A stretch of DNA of 20,019 nucleotides from UHGV virus genome UHGV-0180141; one strand, written 5' to 3'. The stretch is from a virus. The translations under genes were made by a program, and so were the position numbers. Shown in pieces: positions 13,052-18,688 of the stretch. How positions within the stretch are numbered: position 1 is the first letter of the stretch; the number at the start of each line of letters is the position of its first letter. The notes beneath the pieces were generated by a model. It was given only the letters and a program-made list of their open reading frames with translations, was not told the origin of the DNA and searched no databases.

Positions 13052-15787
13052 ATGGCTAATTACCGTGATTTGTTAGAGCAGGCTGGCGCACGTTACGGTG
13101 TGCCAGAAGGGTTGATGACTGCACTGGGTGCCAAGGAGTCTTCTTACAACCCTGCCGCAGTAAGCTCCGCCGGGGCTGTAGGATTGACTCAGGTCATGCC
13201 TGGGACATGGCGTGATATGGGTTATACCGATGAGCAAATGCAAAACCCCGAATATCAGGCTGACGCTGGCGCGCGCTATCTGGCAAAGATGTACCAGCAG
13301 TTTGGTAACTGGCGTGACGCTCTTCAGGCTTATCACGACGGCCCCGGCAACGTTATGAAGGCAAAGCGTGGTGAATATACGCCAGGACCTGAAGGCCGCG
13401 GTTACGTTGATGATCGCTTTGCTCAATGGGCGGGTGACCCGGTGACAGACTCAACAGTCGAACAGCGCGCCACCTCTGCAAAGGTACATCCTCAGCAAGA
13501 CCCTAACAACCCGTTTGCACAACTGGAAGCACAGTCATCCGAACAAGTATCGGCATCAGGCGTGCAGTCAGACCCAAATAATCCATTTGCTCAGATTGAG
13601 CAGCAGGCAGCCAGTCAGCAGCCACCTCAACCCGTAAGTTCTGTCGCACCGAAACCTGTTCAGCAACAAACAGTTAATCAGGCCAATAATGCACCAACAC
13701 GGGAAGAACCATCATTGATGCAACAAGCTGGTGATTGGCTCACAGGTGGTCAAAGTGCAGGGCAAATTGCAGAGCAGGCTGGTCGTGGTCTGGTAAACAT
13801 ACCATTTGACGTATTGCAGGGTGGCGCAAGTCTGATTAATGCAATCAGCCAGGGGCTTGGTGGCCCCAAGGTTTTGGACGATGTCTATCGTCCAGTAGAT
13901 CGACCGACAGACCCTTATGCGCAAGCTGGAGAGTCAATAGGCGGTTATCTTGTTCCTGGAGCAGGAGTAGCTGGAAACATGGTCATTGGTTCTCTCGCTG
14001 ACGCGGCGAATCAACGGGGTGATTTTGCCGAAAATGCCGCTATTAATGCCGGACTTAACATTGCTACGCATGGCCTGATAAATGGCGTTACCCGTGGTGT
14101 TCGTGGCGCATCAAATATAATTAGTGGCAATAAAACATCTGCACAGAGAGCGACCACTGCGCCAACAGAAACATCACCATTCTCCGGTGATGCCGCTGCA
14201 GCAACAAATCCTGCGGTTCATGCCGCAGAGGCAAGAGCAGCACAAGGTGTACCAATGACGCCTGCGGCGAGGGACCCAGAGGAGGTCGTTCGCACAGTAG
14301 CAGCACAAAAAAGGCCAAATCTCGCTTCATCGCTTGATGAACTAGATATCAATCCTCAGGCTGAAGTTCTGGAGTCTGCTGAAAGGCTTAATGTTGATTC
14401 ATTACTCCCTTCACACTTTTCCGGGAACGAGCAATACAAGGCAGTTGAGCAAGCAATCAAGTCCCGTGCGGGTTCTGCTCTACGGGTGCAGGAAAATGAA
14501 GCAATCAGGCAACTAGCACAGGGCGCGGGGGAGATAATTGATCGCGTTTCCGGTGCAAAAGATGCTCTTGGTATGAGCGACAAGTTTATTGATACGATCA
14601 ATGGAAGAATGTCTGCGCTGATGAAACGAAGCGACCAGCTTTATCGCAATGTTGAAAAGGCGATGCCTGCAGGTGCAAAAATTGATGCGCCATCAACAAG
14701 GTCAATGCTCAAACAGGTGGCAGAAGATCTTGGCGGGATGAAAAACCTTGACCCTATTGAAAAGAGAGTCTTTCGGGCAGTTAATCCAGGCAAGAACGGC
14801 GCATTAACTTATGCAAATCTCAATAAGCAACGACGACTTGTTGGTGATGCACTTCATAAGAAGTCTGGACCATATAAAGATGCTGATCGCGCTGCTTTAT
14901 CGAGGCTTTACGGTTCGCTCGCCGATGATCAAAAGGCGGCGCTGTCAGAGACAAATGCATTACGTGATTTTGAAGTTGCTCAGAGGCTTGTTCAGATGCG
15001 AAAAAGCATGGAAGAGCAAATGATTAATCTAACTGGCAGAACACTGAACGGTGATGTTTCTCGCAAAGCAACTACAGCACTACAGGCAATGTCGAAAGGC
15101 GATGCCAAAGGATTTCGTGAATTGATGCAAAACACGCCGTCCAGGAAGCTAAGAACCGAGCTACTGGGAACAGGTCTTCGGGATATGCTTTCGAACGGAA
15201 AACGTGGCGCTGATTTTAATCCTGCAGGGTTTGCTGACTGGTATCAAAACATGTTAGCAAACGGGCAGATGCGCAATCTTGCCCGACATTTACCAAAAGA
15301 GACTATGTCAGGTCTGAACGATGTATATAAGGTCGCAAAGGCTATCAAAGACGCAAAATCTTACGAGATAACTACAGGAAGACTAAACGAGTTCGTCAAA
15401 CGGTTTAATCGCGTCACTGCGGCAAATGAATTTGTTGCTAACCATGCCCAACGCATTGGCACTGCGGTTGGTTCAACTGTGTCAGGACCGTTCAGTGCAG
15501 TAGGTGCTGTTGCTGGGTCAGAAATTGGGGCAAAAGTCGCCAGCAAAATCAGGGCGATGGGCGGCGCTGAATCAATTGAATCTGCAGAAAAGCTAATTAG
15601 CTCACCAGAATTCCAGAAAGCAGCAAGGCTGGCAGTAAAACAAGCACCAGAAAGCATCGTTGATACAACTGTAAGACGCTCTTCTGCTTGGCGCTCGTTT
15701 TACAACTCACTTCCAGAATCAGATAAGAAAACCATATCAAGGCTAGGCATCATGTACTGGATGAACAGTGATGATAACCAGAAGTAA
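13052..15787 (+). CDS. ejection protein (P22 gp16-like) with N-terminal lytic transglycosylase (SLT) domain
   Basis: 911 aa. N-terminal ~110 aa carries SLT-like motifs ([10 protein letters not shown] with candidate catalytic Glu, [19 protein letters not shown]); then a Q/P-rich linker with a tandem DPNNPFAQ(L/I)E repeat, then a long helical/Ala-Gly-rich body. Last gene of the plus-strand string, start abutting the gp20-like stop. Confidence 0.85.
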
Positions 15788-15804
15788 CGGAAAGCCACGG
15801 ATGG

Positions 15805-15888
15805 TTAGTTGCTGTCTTTTTTATATAAATCTCTGAGCGTATCAAAGACAATTTTCTTTACCATATCGGATTGTTGGTCTGCAATACG
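15805..15888 (-). pseudogene. remnant of the 3' end of a P22-type mnt gene (C-terminal ~27 codons only)
   Basis: Minus-strand translation gives ...RIADQQSDMVKKIVFDTLRDLYKKDSN*, closely matching the P22 Mnt C-terminus (...RLADEQSELVKKMVFDTLKDLYKKTT, from memory). No Mnt-like N-terminal region upstream in any frame. The frame is continuous with the lipoprotein ORF stop at 15976-15978. Confidence 0.5.
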
Positions 15889-15975
15889 CGATGCTATTGG
15901 TAGCGATGAATTCAATCGCTTGTCGAGAGCTGGTATTGTCGCCTCGTTAAGCGGTATGAATGAATATGAATAGCT

Positions 15976-16461
15976 TTATCTAATGTTGCTGCTACTGTTG
16001 CATGTGACGGTATTTCCAAATCCTGAATTGCAGTTTGTATATGTGTCAACGCGCGTTGGGTAAGGTTGAGTTATAACAGGCTGGCGCGCTTTTTGCTCGA
16101 TCGCTTGCATTGTGTTTACAGCCTGATAATTCAATAAAGCCTGCTGGAATGCTTGGCTTTGTGCTATTTGTTGGGCTTGTTCTTGGCTTTGTAATTGAAC
16201 ATAAAGATTCTGAAGCTCAAGTCTTGCCTGCGCGTCACTTATCTTGCCATCATCGACACCTTGCCCGAGCATCTTCGCAGCAAGGACATATAACTTAGGT
16301 GTTGGTGCTGATGCCATGCGTGAGTCGTTCTTCACACTGGCATCAAGGCAATTAGCCATATCGCTAAGCTTTGGATAGCGTTGCTCGCAACTTGCCTGAT
16401 AGTCGCTTACTTTTGCGCACCCAGCCAGCAGAAGCGGGATAATTAACAGTGATTTTTTCAT
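15976..16461 (-). CDS. predicted lipoprotein (161 aa) of unknown function; possible superinfection-exclusion moron
   Basis: Start chosen at internal ATG (rc of 16459-16461) giving MKKSLLIIPLLLAGC..., a signal peptide with lipobox LAGC; strong RBS TAAGGAGAG 8 nt upstream. Mature part is Q-rich/helical with a Cys-containing C-terminus. The track ORF extends 17 codons upstream to 16512 without an RBS. Confidence 0.72.
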   Translation of the reverse strand: MKKSLLIIPLLLAGCAKVSDYQASCEQRYPKLSDMANCLDASVKNDSRMASAPTPKLYVLAAKMLGQGVDDGKISDAQARLELQNLYVQLQSQEQAQQIAQSQAFQQALLNYQAVNTMQAIEQKARQPVITQPYPTRVDTYTNCNSGFGNTVTCNSSSNIR

Positions 16462-16495
16462 ATAATTAACTCTCCTTAGTTTTGCGCAGGATACC

Positions 16496-16861
16496 ATGAA
16501 AAAAGTTAACATTGGAAACGTACCAAAGATGCTCGTTCCGCTCTTTGAGAGCGGTACAATTGTGTTTTGTAGAGACTTTCCAGAATGGCAACGCCTGCAT
16601 CAAAAACTTGGCGTTGACGTGCATGACTCGGACGCCAACGGAGCGTCTCATACAATGAGCAGCGAGAATGGTGTTTTGCATGTGATAGGCGTGTTCAATG
16701 GCAAACTATCTACTATTGCCCATGAGTGCGCTCACATGGCATTCGATATCTGCTCAAGGGTCGGCGTTGATGTTGAACCAGGAAGAGCCAACGAGACTTA
16801 CTGCTACTTAATGAGCAGGCTTGTTGAGTTCTGCGAGCGACATATCAAAAAGCCGGAGTGA
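16496..16861 (+). CDS. small HExxH-motif protein (121 aa), putative ImmA/IrrE-like zinc metallopeptidase
   Basis: Contains ...VLHVIGVFNGKLSTIAHECAHMAFD..., fitting the (F/T)(I/L)AHE..H pattern of M78/ImmA-type peptidases, with candidate third ligands (Glu/Asp) downstream. AGGA 5 nt upstream of ATG; divergent from the lipoprotein gene with only 34 bp between start codons. Confidence 0.6.
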   Translation: MKKVNIGNVPKMLVPLFESGTIVFCRDFPEWQRLHQKLGVDVHDSDANGASHTMSSENGVLHVIGVFNGKLSTIAHECAHMAFDICSRVGVDVEPGRANETYCYLMSRLVEFCERHIKKPE

Positions 16862-16872
16862 CCCGGCTTGAT
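16851..16872. terminator. putative bidirectional terminator between convergent genes
   Basis: Hairpin AGCCGG-agtgac-CCGGCT (16851-16868) with T-rich sequence on both strands; overlaps the stop codon of the HExxH gene. Confidence 0.45.
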
Positions 16873-16874
16873 TA

Positions 16875-17054
16875 TTACTTTTTGCTGTCTGGAGTTCGCT
16901 TATCCAATACCCAGCCATGACCTGGCTTTGTTGTTGGTGGAAGCCTTTCATTGTCCTTGACGGTGGCAAAATTGTCTTTCTTACCGCCGCGTGGGCCAAC
17001 TTCTTGGTATATTCCGCCGTTTTTTCCCGTGTTTTCACCTGGTTTTTTCGCCAT
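16875..17054 (-). CDS. hypothetical small Gly/Lys-rich protein (59 aa)
   Basis: Start at internal ATG (rc of 17052-17054) giving MAKKPGENTGKNGGIYQEVGPRGGKKDNFATVKDNERLPPTTKPGHGWVLDKRTPDSKK, with RBS GAGGT 6 nt upstream; terminator hairpin downstream; candidate sigma70 -35 TTGACT (rc of 17114-17119) upstream. Confidence 0.45.
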   Translation of the reverse strand: MAKKPGENTGKNGGIYQEVGPRGGKKDNFATVKDNERLPPTTKPGHGWVLDKRTPDSKK

Positions 17055-17144
17055 GATATACCTCAACATGCACCCGTTATTGGGCGATTAAATATTGATC
17101 TCATTTTATAAGTAGTCAATATGGCCCAGGTAAATGCAAAAATT

Positions 17145-17168
17145 AACCCACCGTCAGGTGGGTTTTTT
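17145..17168. terminator. putative bidirectional rho-independent terminator at the 3' end of the mnt-like gene
   Basis: Hairpin AACCCACC-gtca-GGTGGGTT (17145-17164) followed by TTTTTT on the plus strand and by TTAATTTTTGCATTT on the minus strand; the mnt-like stop codon lies in the loop. Confidence 0.55.
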
Positions 17169-17474
17169 GTTTAGCAGTTCTCTCAACTTTTCGTTCTGCT
17201 CTCTGAACTTTTCCTGTATTTCTTTTTGCATGGCGATAACCTGGGCTTGAAGTTGAACTAGCGCATCAACATTTAGCGGAACCGAGACGCTGTTGATTTT
17301 GTCTGCTATTTCCCCAAGAGTATTTTCTGCATTCAAGGCATCTTCCAGTATCTGCACAATCTCTGAGTTCATAGAGCGCCCGTTTCGTTTGGCTCTCTCC
17401 GCAATCGCGTCCCTCATCCCGTCAGGGAAACGCACAACAAACTTTTCGTAATCTTTAACCTGCTTTTCAGCCAT
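17154..17474 (-). CDS. mnt: Mnt-like ribbon-helix-helix repressor (106 aa)
   Basis: N-terminus KFVVRFPDGMRDAIAERAKRNGRSMNSEIVQILEDAL matches the Arc/Mnt RHH fold signature (NGRS(M/V)NSE); helical C-terminal extension; GAGGTG RBS 5 nt upstream; divergent from the arc-like gene as in P22 immI. Confidence 0.8.
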   Translation of the reverse strand: MAEKQVKDYEKFVVRFPDGMRDAIAERAKRNGRSMNSEIVQILEDALNAENTLGEIADKINSVSVPLNVDALVQLQAQVIAMQKEIQEKFREQNEKLRELLNKKPT

Positions 17475-17493
17475 AACATCACCTCAAAAAAAA

Positions 17494-17556
17494 CAATGAT
17501 GGCATATTGCTATTTATATTCAATGATGGCATATTGCTTTCAAGGCATAATGCCAT
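17494..17556. promoter_or_regulatory. candidate immI operator/promoter region (Pant/Pmnt with Arc/Mnt operator repeats)
   Basis: Perfect 18-bp direct repeat CAATGATGGCATATTGCT at 17494-17511 and 17521-17538 (27-bp period), plus inverted element GGCAT-a-ATGCC at 17544-17554 sharing the ATGGCAT core; candidate -10 CATAAT (17546-17551) for the rightward arc-ant promoter and TTGAAA/AATATA-like elements on the minus strand for mnt. Confidence 0.5.
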
Positions 17557-17576
17557 TACGTAAAAAGGAGTGATCA

Positions 17577-17738
17577 ATGGAAAAGAATGAAGTGAAGACA
17601 ACTCTTCGGTATCCGTACCGTTTTAAGGAGGAGGTGAAACGCATCGCTAAGGAAGAGGGGATGTCAGAAAACTCAGTGTTGGTTCAGGGACTTGCTTGGT
17701 GGTTGAAGTACCGGGAGAAAATGCGGAATGCTCTCTAA
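17577..17738 (+). CDS. arc: Arc-like ribbon-helix-helix repressor (53 aa)
   Basis: Hand translation MEKNEVKTTLRYPYRFKEEVKRIAKEEGMSENSVLVQGLAWWLKYREKMRNAL; 53 aa as in P22 Arc, with an RHH-like beta-strand/helix pattern; AAAGGAG RBS 6 nt upstream; directly upstream of ant. Below the ORF-track size cutoff. Confidence 0.72.
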   Translation: MEKNEVKTTLRYPYRFKEEVKRIAKEEGMSENSVLVQGLAWWLKYREKMRNAL

Positions 17739-17809: not shown

Positions 17810-18688
17810 ATGAAAAGTATAGCAAAGGCACAAAACGATTTCACCATCTTCAAATTCGGCGACAGTGAAATCCGCGTCATCAACAAGTGCGGTGAGCCGT
17901 GGTTTGTAGCAAAAGATGTTTGTGATGCTTTAACTCTGACTAACTCACGCAAGGCGCTTACTGCACTTGATGACGATGAGAAGGGAGTAACTTTAAGTTA
18001 CACCCTTGGTGGTGAGCAGAATTTAAGCATTGTGAGCGAATCAGGTATGTATACATTGGTTCTGCGCTGCCGCGATGCAGTCAATAAAGGTTCAGTCCCG
18101 CACAAATTCCGCAAGTGGGTAACAGCAGAAGTTCTGCCTTCAATTCGCAAACATGGCGAGTATGTAAAAGGAAAGAAAACCACTGTTGAGGAAAGAACAC
18201 CGCTACGAGATGCAGTAAACATGCTGGTAGGAAAGAAAGGACTTCGCTATGACGATGCATACAATATGGTTCATCAGCGTTTTGGTATTGACAGCATTGA
18301 TGAACTTTCAATTGAACAAATCCCGCTGGCCGTAGAGTACATCCACAGGGTAGTGCTTGAAGGTGAGTTCATTGGCAAACAAGAGAAGAAAACCAACGAG
18401 CTTTCTGCAAAAGAAGCAAACAGCCTTGTATGGCTATGGGATTATGCCAACCGCTCACAGGCATTATTCCGCGAATTGTATTCGGCGCTAAAACAAATTC
18501 AATCGAACTATTCCGGCAGATGCTACGACTACGGTCATGAATTCTCGTATGTTATCGGAATGGCGAGAGACGTTTTAATCAATCACACACGAGATGTTGA
18601 TATTAATGAGCCAGACGGACCAACGAATCTTTCCGCATGGATGAGACTTAAGAATAAAGAATTACCTCCTTCAGTACATAACTACTGA
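17810..18688 (+). CDS. ant: antirepressor Ant (BRO-N/KilA-N-type N-terminal domain)
   Basis: 292 aa (P22 Ant about 300); N-terminal [18 protein letters not shown]...[10 protein letters not shown]...[17 protein letters not shown] is the Bro-N/antirepressor signature; follows arc. Confidence 0.85.

What the first reader, a model, noticed from the sequence alone, without database searches (positions are those of the whole stretch)
15788..17153. Accessory (moron) cassette of three uncharacterised genes between gene 16 and the immI repressor
Between the last ejection-protein gene and mnt lie three genes in alternating orientation, each with its own RBS: a lipoprotein (-), an HExxH putative metallopeptidase (+) and a small Gly/Lys-rich protein (-). 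Two hairpin terminators bracket them. In P22 this locus holds superinfection-exclusion functions, so it is a hotspot for defence or lysogenic-conversion cargo. None of the three resembles a protein I can name, making this the best candidate in the window for an undescribed system.
Basis: partly seen in the sequence, partly recalled or inferred. Interest (0 to 1): 0.8.

Follow-up and report, generated by a model that had tools for sequence, protein, structure and literature searches.

The report
P22 sieA-slot lipoprotein plus hkcC/orf59a
The three genes are real but are not one new system: one is a swappable prophage lipoprotein gene sitting where phage P22 keeps its exclusion gene sieA, and the other two are a conserved gene pair of unknown function already present in P22.

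Summary
The three ORFs exist as described. They are a 161-aa lipoprotein (15976-16461, -), a 121-aa HExxH protein (16496-16861, +) and a 59-aa Gly/Lys-rich protein (16875-17054, -). They are not one cassette.

ORF B and ORF C lie on a 700-bp block (16468-17170) that is about 98% identical to phage P22 and HK620. They are the known but uncharacterised hkcC and orf59a/hkcD, and the block occurs in about 600 of 5426 complete E. coli genomes.
- HkcC is a Pfam-less mini-zincin (invariant HExxH plus Glu) that always lies on the late-operon strand.
- Orf59a is a YjzC-family moron with its own promoter-like site and terminator.
- The two stay convergently paired in P22-like and siphovirus prophages.

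ORF A fills the position held by sieA in P22, a one-gene slot downstream of the same RBS and promoter region. In 80 related loci that slot holds at least 12 unrelated families, one at a time, and 11 of them are envelope proteins. The lipoprotein is the commonest (18 of 80).

A 99.4%-identical ortholog in the LF82 prophage Gally is transcribed in lysogens while gene 16 stays silent. The most likely role is a prophage-expressed outer-membrane exclusion or conversion factor, which is inferred and untested.

The two strong hairpins flank orf59a, not the trio. Interest is moderate.

The parts
13052..15787 (+). Context: gene 16-type ejection (DNA transfer) protein, 911 aa, with an N-terminal SLT lytic transglycosylase domain.
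   Evidence: ORF list. Pfam SLT, E 3.3e-25. Synteny with P22-like phages.
15788..15975 (+). Recombination scar. Positions 15869-15973 are a relic of the last ~31 codons and stop of an HK620-type gene 16 (SAIRDAIGSDEFNRLSRAGIVASLSGMNEYE*).
   Evidence: Translations of the window and of HK620 gp16. In E. coli 2020CK-00188 an intact gene 16 ends 2 bp from the lipoprotein gene. No significant hairpin is present.
15976..16461 (-). ORF A: a 161-aa predicted outer-membrane lipoprotein. It has the lipobox LLLAGC, Ala at position +2 and conserved Cys pairs. The predicted structure is a helical bundle, a long Gln-rich helix and a C-terminal Cys beta-hairpin. It occupies the sieA/hkcB slot.
16468..17170 (.). 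Conserved ~700-bp block shared at about 98% identity with P22, HK620 and about 600 E. coli genomes. Its left edge is exactly at the RBS of the leftward slot gene. Its right edge is in the mnt terminator.
   Evidence: Megablast. Three-way DNA alignment.
16495..16525 (-). Equivalent of the annotated P22 sieA promoter. It overlaps the 5' end of hkcC and would drive the leftward slot gene, here the lipoprotein gene.
   Evidence: Annotated as 'P sieA' in P22-pbi and in BK000583/NC_002371 at the homologous position. The sequence is conserved. My consensus scan did not call a sigma-70 site here, so the assignment rests on the P22 annotation.
16496..16861 (+). ORF B = hkcC: a 121-aa cytoplasmic mini-zincin (HExxH plus Glu100) on the late-operon strand.
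16850..16869 (.). Bidirectional GC hairpin between the convergent stops of hkcC and orf59a. It is a good terminator for the leftward orf59a transcript and has a weaker T-tract for rightward transcription.
   Evidence: Annotated tORF59A in HK620 and t-mnt in P22. A hairpin is present at this position in all six diverged lineages of the pair.
16875..17054 (-). ORF C = orf59a / hkcD: a 59-aa basic Gly/Lys/Pro-rich protein of the YjzC-like family, antisense to the late operon.
   Evidence: 98-100% identical to P22 Orf59a. phrog_3202. Pfam YjzC 19.4 bits, below the cutoff of 25. 16 of 27 homologs hit YjzC, with a best E of 4e-10. 108 homolog clusters.
17091..17119 (-). Sigma-70 promoter-like site (TTGACT-17-AATATT) upstream of orf59a. 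It was the only such site called in 15600-17700.
   Evidence: This is a consensus match only and function is not shown.
17145..17164 (.). Strong bidirectional terminator hairpin at the 3' end of the mnt-like gene (tMNT in the HK620 annotation). It marks the right edge of the conserved block.
   Evidence: z -4.7 and -3.7.
17154..17474 (-). Context: a 106-aa Arc/Mnt-family repressor gene, a different allele from the P22 mnt. It is followed by arc-like (17577-17738, +) and ant-like (17810-18688, +) genes.
   Evidence: Pfam Arc, E 1.6e-19. ORF list. Similarity to P22 stops at about 17170.

Best explanation
The segment is a mosaic of two independent units at the gene16-immI junction of a P22-like (Lederbergvirus) E. 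coli prophage.

Unit 1 is a single-gene exchange slot immediately downstream (leftward) of a conserved RBS/promoter region. P22 keeps sieA there. This phage carries a 161-aa lipoprotein gene instead.
- Shown: the slot is filled by one of at least 12 unrelated genes, almost all encoding envelope proteins.
- Shown: the lipoprotein family is confined to P22-like prophages of Enterobacterales, always convergent with gene 16.
- Shown: a 99.4%-identical ortholog is transcribed in a lysogen while the flanking late genes are silent.
- Inferred: the protein is lipidated and sorted to the inner face of the outer membrane (no Asp at +2, probable disulfides). From there it acts as a prophage-expressed superinfection-exclusion factor, most plausibly by interfering with the trans-periplasmic DNA-delivery conduit or its envelope co-factors. 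This would make it a functional alternative to the inner-membrane protein SieA. I put about 40% on exclusion and about 30% on a host-fitness conversion role.

Unit 2 is the conserved hkcC -> <- orf59a pair, which is present in P22 itself.
- hkcC encodes a mini-zincin that is co-oriented with late structural genes in every context and has no room for a conserved promoter. It is probably made late in lytic growth.
- orf59a is a classical moron (promoter-like site, RBS, ORF, terminator, antisense to the late operon). It encodes a small basic YjzC-family protein and is probably made in the lysogen.
- Their biochemical functions remain unknown.
For: Architecture
- ORFs, RBSs and motifs.
- The 700-bp block is about 98% identical to P22 and HK620, and its left breakpoint is exactly at the slot gene's RBS.

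Slot behaviour
- 80 IMG/VR loci with at least 98%-identical hkcC carry 12 unrelated leftward genes. The lipoprotein accounts for 18, a 129-aa secreted protein for 12 and SieA for 11.
- 11 of the 12 families have an N-terminal signal peptide or TM segment.
- The distance from the gene 16 stop to the anchor fits exactly one gene in nearly every locus.

Lipoprotein autonomy
- It sits alone between gene 16 and the tailspike gene in Morganella and Yersinia ruckeri prophages.
- It is present in 186 of 5426 complete E. coli genomes, including LF82, O104:H4 and ST131.

Expression
- LF82_138 / GALLYPH_13 (99.4% identical) has log2(fpkm+5) of 6.0-6.3 in LB, 7.9-8.2 in DMEM, 10.3 in macrophages at 1 h and 8.5-8.7 at 6 h. 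The adjacent gene 16 stays at 3.6-4.2 (PMC9928086 S1 Table; text).

Precedent at this locus
- SieA is an inner-membrane blocker of P22-like DNA injection, with escape mutations in gp16/gp20 (PMC10883804).
- In BTP1, a lysogen transcript at the gene16/gene9 junction confers exclusion, with escape SNPs in the gene 16 3' end (PMC7067206).

The hkcC/orf59a pair
- The convergent pair with an intervening hairpin is conserved in six lineages at 40-64% (HkcC) and 51-86% (Orf59a) identity. These lie in P22-like and siphovirus prophages beside the tape-measure gene.
- HkcC relatives always lie on the late strand.
- Zincin evidence.
- orf59a promoter and terminator.
Against: - No phenotype exists for any of the three genes.
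- The lipoprotein has no detectable similarity to SieA, Cor, Llp, Bor or any PADLOC, Pfam or NCBIfam model. Its structure model is only moderate (pLDDT 65) and uninformative.
- Guilt by position is indirect.
- In LF82 the ortholog is driven by a different upstream region, because Gally lacks the hkcC block. Expression from the P22-type promoter region in this window is therefore inferred, and my consensus scan did not call a sigma-70 site there.
- Strong induction in DMEM and macrophages points at least as much to a host-adaptation role as to phage exclusion.
- The authors of the LF82 study scored Gally as having no moron, because this gene was 4.5-fold over background against their 5-fold cutoff.
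- The 80-locus survey is the best-80 by identity and is not corrected for phylogeny.
- For hkcC, late expression is inferred from orientation only.
Confidence: 0.55

Rival explanations
1. The lipoprotein is a host-fitness lysogenic-conversion factor, comparable to lambda Bor or to envelope-stress and virulence lipoproteins, and not a phage-exclusion protein.
For: - The Gally ortholog is among five prophage genes induced 6-40-fold inside macrophages and also in DMEM.
- The gene is found in pathogenic lineages, including LF82, O104:H4 and ST131.
- It has no similarity to any known exclusion protein.
Against: - The gene is strictly tied to the sieA position next to the ejection-protein genes in P22-like prophages of at least eight genera.
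- It is mutually exclusive with SieA and other small envelope proteins at a one-gene slot.
- No virulence phenotype has been reported. Misson et al. found none for Gally as a whole.
Confidence: 0.3
2. HkcC and Orf59a form a functional two-component module. Orf59a would be made in the lysogen, and the HkcC protease, made when late transcription starts, would cleave or antagonise it, with convergent late transcription also silencing orf59a.
For: - The convergent adjacency and shared hairpin are conserved in six diverged lineages and in two different virion types.
- Every HkcC of this subfamily that was examined has an Orf59a partner.
- The two genes lie on opposite strands, one being the late strand.
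- Orf59a is more conserved than HkcC.
Against: - More distant HkcC relatives lack any Orf59a homolog. These include Orf-129 of L/ST64T/epsilon34 and proteins of the mEp phages and phCDa.
- Orf59a homologs occur without HkcC in an S. bongori prophage and in compost contigs.
- HK620 keeps hkcC with a nonsense codon at orf59a codon 18 (and my reading of the alignment).
- There is no interaction or cleavage evidence, and linkage could simply reflect a small block that recombines as a unit.
Confidence: 0.15
3. The three genes are one undescribed defence or exclusion system acting together.
For: - The genes are physically adjacent.
- The locus is known for exclusion functions.
- None has a curated family assignment.
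Against: - The distributions are independent. The lipoprotein occurs without the pair. The pair occurs with 11 other slot genes and in siphoviruses.
- A mosaic breakpoint lies exactly between ORF A and ORF B.
- There are no PADLOC hits.
Confidence: 0.03
4. HkcC is a stand-alone lytic-cycle accessory protease, for example for host takeover or anti-defence, or an SprT-like protein. Orf59a is an unrelated moron that merely shares a terminator with it.
For: - HkcC-like ~120-aa proteins occur in virulent and temperate phages of many hosts.
- They always lie in late-operon positions.
- The family has 514 representatives.
- Some BFVD matches are labelled SprT-like or metalloprotease.
Against: - This reading does not explain why the pair stays together at 40-64% identity across phage types.
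- No substrate or curated family is known.
Confidence: 0.35

Closest known systems
P22 SieA (superinfection exclusion A)
   Same: - Same genomic position: leftward, convergent with gene 16, immediately downstream of the same conserved RBS/promoter region.
- Mutually exclusive alternatives at a one-gene slot.
- Both are envelope proteins of prophages.
   Different: - SieA is a multi-pass inner-membrane protein with the motif FxRYPxEAxxFNK (PMC10883804).
- ORF A is a lipoprotein with no TM helices beyond its signal peptide, no such motif and no sequence similarity.
- Its function is untested.
Phage outer-membrane exclusion lipoproteins (T5 Llp, phi80/T1 Cor) and the lambda Bor lipoprotein
   Same: They are small phage-encoded lipoproteins, expressed independently of the structural genes, that alter the cell envelope. 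This comparison rests on established knowledge; Llp, Cor and Bor are mentioned in PMC11990801 and PMC9928086.
   Different: - There is no detectable sequence or profile similarity.
- ORF A is larger and has a long Gln-rich helix and a Cys hairpin.
- Llp and Cor block FhuA, which P22-like phages do not use.
HK620 HkcC / P22 unannotated ORF / ST64T Orf-129 (phrog_1365)
   Same: - ORF B is 99.2% identical to HkcC and to the P22 ORF.
- It is 38% identical to Orf-129.
   Different: There is essentially no difference from HkcC, whose function has never been determined. Orf-129 sits between the lysis and terminase genes and has no Orf59a partner.
Minimal zincin / gluzincin metallopeptidases (for example 3e11 'predicted zincin-like metalloprotease', SprT-like, ImmA/IrrE M78, CapP)
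   Same: - It has HExxH on a helix after a beta-sheet, and a Glu on the next helix 20 residues after the second His.
- The motif is invariant across the family.
   Different: - There is no Pfam or NCBIfam hit, including Peptidase_M78 and SprT-like.
- It has no partner HTH repressor gene of the kind ImmA has.
- Catalysis is untested.
P22 Orf59a / YjzC-like family (PF14168)
   Same: - ORF C is 98% identical to P22 Orf59a.
- The homolog series grades into proteins that pass the Pfam YjzC threshold.
   Different: - The window protein itself scores 19.4 bits, below the gathering threshold of 25.
- No member of the family has a known function.
HK97 gp15 moron (Cumby et al. 2012, cited in PMC10883804)
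   Same: It is a moron inserted among tail genes next to the tape-measure gene. In siphovirus prophages the hkcC/orf59a pair sits at the equivalent place. orf59a has the promoter-ORF-terminator anatomy of a moron.
   Different: - gp15 is an inner-membrane exclusion protein, whereas Orf59a has no hydrophobic segment.
- The comparison with gp15 rests on my knowledge of that paper and was not tested here.

Membership tests
Bacterial lipoprotein (SPase II substrate) | N-terminal basic n-region, a hydrophobic h-region, and a lipobox [LVI][ASTVI][GAS]C. | tested here: met
   The N-terminus is MKKSLLIIPLLLAG|C. Cys15 and Gly14 are invariant or nearly invariant in 28 homologs at 46-88% identity.
Bacterial lipoprotein (SPase II substrate) | Actual lipidation and outer-membrane sorting (no Asp at +2 under the Lol rule). 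| not testable with these tools
   Position +2 is Ala (CAKVSD). The outer-membrane prediction follows from the established E. coli +2 rule. The conserved Cys25/Cys38 and C-terminal Cys pair fit a periplasmic, oxidising location.
SieA family | Multi-pass inner-membrane protein with the cytoplasmic motif FxRYPxEAxxFNK. | tested here: not met
   ORF A has no TM helix after its signal peptide and lacks the motif. The SieA features are taken from PMC10883804.
SieA family | Located between genes 16 and 9 of a P22-like prophage, transcribed leftward. | tested here: met
Superinfection-exclusion function (any family) | Prophage expression plus a block of infection by incoming phage. | tested here: inconclusive
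   Expression of a 99.4%-identical ortholog in a lysogen is published. No exclusion assay exists.
Zincin / gluzincin metallopeptidase | An HExxH motif on the active-site helix plus a downstream Glu as the third zinc ligand. | tested here: met
   H76, E77 and E100 are invariant and H80 is nearly invariant in 40 sequences at 26-44% identity. The helices are at 71-88 and 100-116 in an AF2 model with pLDDT 89.
Zincin / gluzincin metallopeptidase | Zincin fold recognised by structure comparison. | tested here: inconclusive
Zincin / gluzincin metallopeptidase | Zinc binding and peptidase activity. | not testable with these tools
   This needs biochemistry.
ImmA/IrrE (Peptidase_M78, PF06114) or SprT-like (PF10263) | A match to the family profile. 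| tested here: not met
   No Pfam hit at E<=1 for the window protein and none at E<=0.01 for 40 family members. Only some BFVD structural neighbours carry the names 'SprT-like' or 'IrrE'.
YjzC-like (PF14168) | A score at or above the Pfam gathering threshold (25 bits). | tested here: inconclusive
   The window protein scores 19.4 bits, E 1.3e-3. 16 of 27 aligned homologs match, with a best E of 4e-10, and UniRef names close homologs 'YjzC family protein'. It is probably a divergent subfamily.
Moron (autonomous transcription unit within a late operon) | Own promoter, ORF and terminator, oriented or regulated independently of the flanking late genes, and present in only some relatives. | tested here: met
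   - orf59a has a promoter-like site at 17119-17091, an RBS and a terminator at 16850-16869, and is antisense to the late operon.
- For the lipoprotein, presence is variable and the ortholog is transcribed in lysogens.
- Promoter activity in this window is not shown.
Known anti-phage defence systems (PADLOC-DB) | A match to any defence-protein model. | tested here: not met
   Zero hits at E<=1 for all three proteins.

The most novel reading that the evidence does not exclude
The hkcC -> <- orf59a pair is an undescribed lysogeny/lysis switch module. A YjzC-family protein would be made by the prophage, and a mini-zincin, made only when late transcription fires, would remove it, with convergent transcription reinforcing the switch. 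This would give the first function to the YjzC family and to a 500-cluster family of phage mini-proteases. In parallel, the sieA slot would be a library of at least 12 mechanistically different envelope blockers of podovirus DNA delivery, with this outer-membrane lipoprotein as the commonest.
Probability: 0.12. Interest if true: 0.65.

Novelty: new member of a known kind. Interest (0 to 1): 0.38.

Why it matters
Two of the three genes sit in phage P22, one of the best-studied phages, and still have no function. hkcC is not even annotated as a CDS in the P22 reference records. Showing that they travel as a conserved convergent pair across podovirus and siphovirus prophages, always beside the DNA-delivery genes, gives a concrete hypothesis to test.

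The lipoprotein is the commonest occupant of the position where P22 encodes SieA. It is carried by about 3% of complete E. coli genomes, including LF82, O104:H4 and ST131 strains, and published data show it is transcribed in lysogens and induced in macrophages. If it blocks P22-like DNA entry from the outer-membrane side, it would complement the inner-membrane SieA mechanism. It would also provide a new handle on how the gp7/gp20/gp16 conduit crosses the periplasm. If it is instead a host-adaptation factor, it matters for AIEC and ExPEC biology.

Either way, the slot is a ready-made panel of about a dozen small envelope proteins for exclusion screens.

Tried and rejected
- **Curated family searches.** Pfam, NCBIfam and PADLOC gave nothing usable for all three proteins. 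The weak GspK (18 bits against a cutoff of 130) and lantibiotic hits are noise.
- **PDB profile searches.** The narrow HkcC profile and the Orf59a profile found nothing. The lipoprotein profile gave only noise (E 1.7 and above). The broader HkcC profile gave only myroilysin at E 0.03.
- **AFDB50 Foldseek** was not available.
- **The search for related loci with the distant HkcC alignment** failed for lack of a conserved stretch. The closer alignment returned only near-identical copies, which I reused for the slot survey.
- **Literature.** Searches for 'hkcC' and 'YjzC' returned only unrelated matches. The BASEL paper says nothing about this locus.
- **BTP1 STnc6030.** I considered that it might hide a small slot ORF. 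The 155-bp gene16-gene9 gap and the antisense ORFs (56 aa or shorter in the gene16-gene9 junction region, none visibly hydrophobic) give no support, so I left it as published.
- **A terminator directly after gene 16.** The fold is not better than shuffles, z -0.22.
- **A sigma-70 consensus for the P22 'P sieA' equivalent.** My scan did not call one, so the assignment rests on the GenBank annotation.
Full report
**What is there.** The window is the late-gene end of a P22-like (Lederbergvirus) E. coli phage or prophage. Three ORFs lie in -,+,- order between an ejection-protein gene 16 (13052-15787, +) and an Arc/Mnt-family gene (17154-17474, -). Gene 16 encodes 911 aa with an N-terminal SLT domain.
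- ORF A (15976-16461, -) encodes 161 aa beginning MKKSLLIIPLLLAGC, with AAGGAG upstream.
- ORF B (16496-16861, +) encodes 121 aa with HECAH.
- ORF C (16875-17054, -) encodes a 59-aa Gly/Lys/Pro-rich basic protein with GAGGT upstream.

Each has many diverged homologs with conserved columns, so all three are real genes.

The hairpin claim is only half right.
- The two strong hairpins are at 16850-16869 and 17145-17164. They flank ORF C, not the trio.
- Nothing better than shuffled sequence follows gene 16.
- The 188-bp 'spacer' after gene 16 contains a relic of the last ~31 codons of an HK620-type gene 16.
- In E. coli 2020CK-00188 an intact gene 16 of that type ends 2 bp from the lipoprotein gene. 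The window phage therefore acquired a different gene 16 allele by recombination and kept the scar.

**Two of the three genes are old acquaintances.**
- Window 16468-17170 is about 98% identical to P22, HK620 and dozens of Salmonella P22-like phages. It matches 602 of 5426 complete E. coli genomes.
- ORF B is HK620 hkcC (99.2% aa identity). The same intact ORF is in P22 but is not annotated as a CDS in AF527608, BK000583 or NC_002371.
- ORF C is P22 orf59a / HK620 'hkcD'.
- All three proteins fall in existing PHROGs of unknown function. None hits Pfam above threshold, NCBIfam or PADLOC.

**The mosaic boundary.** A three-way DNA alignment shows that similarity to P22 and HK620 starts exactly at the RBS of the leftward gene and ends in the mnt terminator.
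- To the left, P22 has sieA, HK620 has hkcB, and the window has the lipoprotein gene.
- The P22 records annotate the sieA promoter inside the conserved block, overlapping the 5' end of hkcC.
- The lipoprotein gene has therefore replaced sieA downstream of the same control region.

**The slot.** I fetched 80 IMG/VR loci with at least 98%-identical hkcC and extracted the leftward gene beside the conserved anchor.
- These genes fall into 12 unrelated families: the 161-aa lipoprotein (18), a 129-aa secreted protein (12), SieA (11), HkcB-like TM/coiled-coil proteins (8), a 75-aa multi-TM protein (8), and seven rarer ones.
- Eleven of the twelve families start with a signal peptide or TM segment.
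- The distance from the gene 16 stop to the anchor fits exactly one gene in almost every locus. The families therefore behave as mutually exclusive alternatives.
- The sample is not corrected for relatedness.

**The lipoprotein is autonomous.**
- Its homologs (94 clusters) are all from Enterobacterales.
- In Morganella and Yersinia ruckeri P22-like prophages the gene sits alone between gene 16 and the tailspike gene, with no hkcC, orf59a or immI.
- In a Morganella prophage it occurs with the pair.
- In phage Gally of E. coli LF82 it occurs with a different neighbour, a second lipoprotein gene.
- It is present in 186 of 5426 complete E. coli genomes.
- Conserved features are the lipobox Cys15, Cys25/Cys38 and a C-terminal Cys pair.
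- Ala at +2 predicts outer-membrane sorting under the established Lol rule.

**Published expression data.** Misson et al. (PMC9928086) re-analysed LF82 RNA-seq. Their S1 Table lists log2(fpkm+5) for LF82_138 / GALLYPH_13, which is 99.4% identical to ORF A.

| Condition | LF82_138 | Adjacent gene 16 (LF82_137) |
|---|---|---|
| LB | 6.3 / 6.0 | 3.6-4.2 across all conditions |
| DMEM | 7.9-8.2 | |
| Macrophages, 1 h | 10.3 | |
| Macrophages, 6 h | 8.5-8.7 | |

- In LB it is the second most expressed Gally gene after the repressor. It narrowly missed the authors' 5-fold moron cutoff (70.2 against 78.1), which is why they stated that Gally has no moron.
- Their text notes that the five rightmost genes are induced 6-40-fold in macrophages.
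- The ortholog is therefore transcribed from the prophage independently of the late operon. The upstream region in Gally differs from that in the window, so expression here is inferred.

**Precedent for function at this locus.**
- In BTP1, a lysogen-expressed leftward transcript at the gene16/gene9 junction confers exclusion, with escape SNPs in the 3' end of gene 16 (PMC7067206).
- Taken with the slot data, I consider a prophage-expressed envelope factor the best reading for ORF A. Superinfection exclusion is the most likely role (about 40%), and a Bor-like host-fitness role is the main rival (about 30%).

**HkcC.**
- The AF2 model is confident (pLDDT 89). It shows a beta-sheet followed by helices at 71-88 (HExxH) and 100-116.
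- A profile search of 1.8 billion representatives finds 514 relatives of about 120 aa.
- In 40 of these at 26-44% identity, G49, H76, E77 and E100 are invariant and H80 is nearly so. This is a gluzincin-type signature.
- BFVD holds many uncharacterised phage proteins with this fold, some labelled SprT-like or metalloprotease.
- No family member hits Pfam.
- In every context examined the gene is co-oriented with late structural or lysis genes. These contexts are beside gene 16 in P22-likes, between tail genes and the tape-measure gene in siphovirus prophages, and between the lysis and terminase genes for the paralog Orf-129 and the mEp phages.
- Only 28 conserved bases precede its ATG, and the slot gene upstream is variable. 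A conserved private promoter is therefore unlikely, and late read-through expression is the simplest inference.

**Orf59a.**
- It is a divergent YjzC-like protein. The window copy scores 19.4 bits against a cutoff of 25, but 16 of 27 aligned homologs hit PF14168.
- It has the anatomy of a moron: the only sigma-70-like site called in the region (17119-17091), an RBS, and a good leftward terminator. It is antisense to the late operon.
- No structure or function is known for the family.

**The pair.** HkcC and Orf59a remain convergent neighbours with a GC hairpin between their stops in six diverged lineages. Identity is 40-64% for HkcC and 51-86% for Orf59a. The lineages are the E. coli/Salmonella block, Morganella P22-likes, Klebsiella oxytoca, Rosenbergiella and metagenomic siphovirus prophages, and a contig next to a PF18894 metallopeptidase gene.

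The linkage is not universal.
- Distant HkcC relatives have no Orf59a.
- Orf59a homologs occur alone.
- HK620 carries a nonsense codon at orf59a codon 18 (alignment).

A functional coupling, with a lysogeny protein removed by a late protease, is possible but unproven (about 15%).

**Verdict.** The 'three-gene undescribed system' is not.
- The segment is a one-gene exchange slot, here holding a lipoprotein that is a candidate new exclusion or conversion factor.
- Next to it is a conserved pair of long-known, function-unknown P22 genes.
- Nothing here lies outside known kinds of prophage cargo. The value is in concrete, cheap experiments.

Noticed in passing
window 13052-15787: The gene 16-type ejection protein is 911 aa and carries an N-terminal SLT lytic transglycosylase domain (Pfam E 3.3e-25), unlike the 609-aa gp16 of P22. 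This would be a peptidoglycan-cutting domain on an ejected protein, reminiscent of T7 gp16; that comparison is from my own knowledge and was not tested.
   Followed up: no
window 15869-15973: There is a relic of the 3' end of a different (HK620-type) gene 16 allele directly after the functional gene 16. It is a recombination scar, showing that the lipoprotein gene arrived attached to another gene 16.
   Followed up: yes
L001 (P22-pbi 13861-14223); BK000583/NC_002371: P22 itself contains an intact hkcC ORF (99.2% aa identity), but the reference records annotate only 'sieA promoter' and 'mnt terminator' there and no CDS.
   Followed up: partly
L002 (HK620 34052-34231): The HK620 copy of orf59a has TAA in place of the invariant Glu18 codon, so it is probably a pseudogene, while the neighbouring hkcC is intact.
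   Followed up: partly
L108 2947-3366 (phage Gally GALLYPH_14 / LF82_139): A second, unrelated 139-aa lipoprotein gene (MKRIIGVVAGAILLSGC...) sits where hkcC/orf59a would be. It is even more strongly expressed in DMEM and macrophages (log2 9.4-11.0) than the ORF A ortholog.
   Followed up: partly
L105 (BTP1 13700-14700): BTP1 has only 155 bp between gene 16 and the tailspike gene, so it has no slot gene. The published exclusion transcript STnc6030 has escape SNPs that are non-synonymous in the gp16 C-terminus, the same region where SieA escape mutations map. I found no convincing small membrane ORF on the antisense strand.
   Followed up: partly
L010-L011 (Logan contigs), about 1330-1968: The most diverged hkcC/orf59a pair (43% HkcC identity to the window by BLASTP) lies next to a 212-aa PF18894 'PhageMetallopep' gene, so two different metallopeptidase-like genes sit side by side.
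   Followed up: no
L018-L020 (Salmonella bongori prophage): A stand-alone Orf59a homolog (68% identity) lies near the lysis genes and a GmrSD/HEPN defence pair, with no HkcC.
   Followed up: no
L007 10241-12369 (Klebsiella oxytoca siphovirus prophage): An Arc/Mnt-like gene pair and a SNIPE/T5orf172 nuclease gene lie just downstream of the tape-measure gene. This is an immI-like module in a siphovirus that also carries the hkcC/orf59a pair.
   Followed up: no
window 17154-17738: The mnt-like gene (106 aa) and arc-like gene differ from the P22 alleles. Similarity to P22 ends inside the terminator at about 17170, so the immI region is a separate mosaic module.
   Followed up: no
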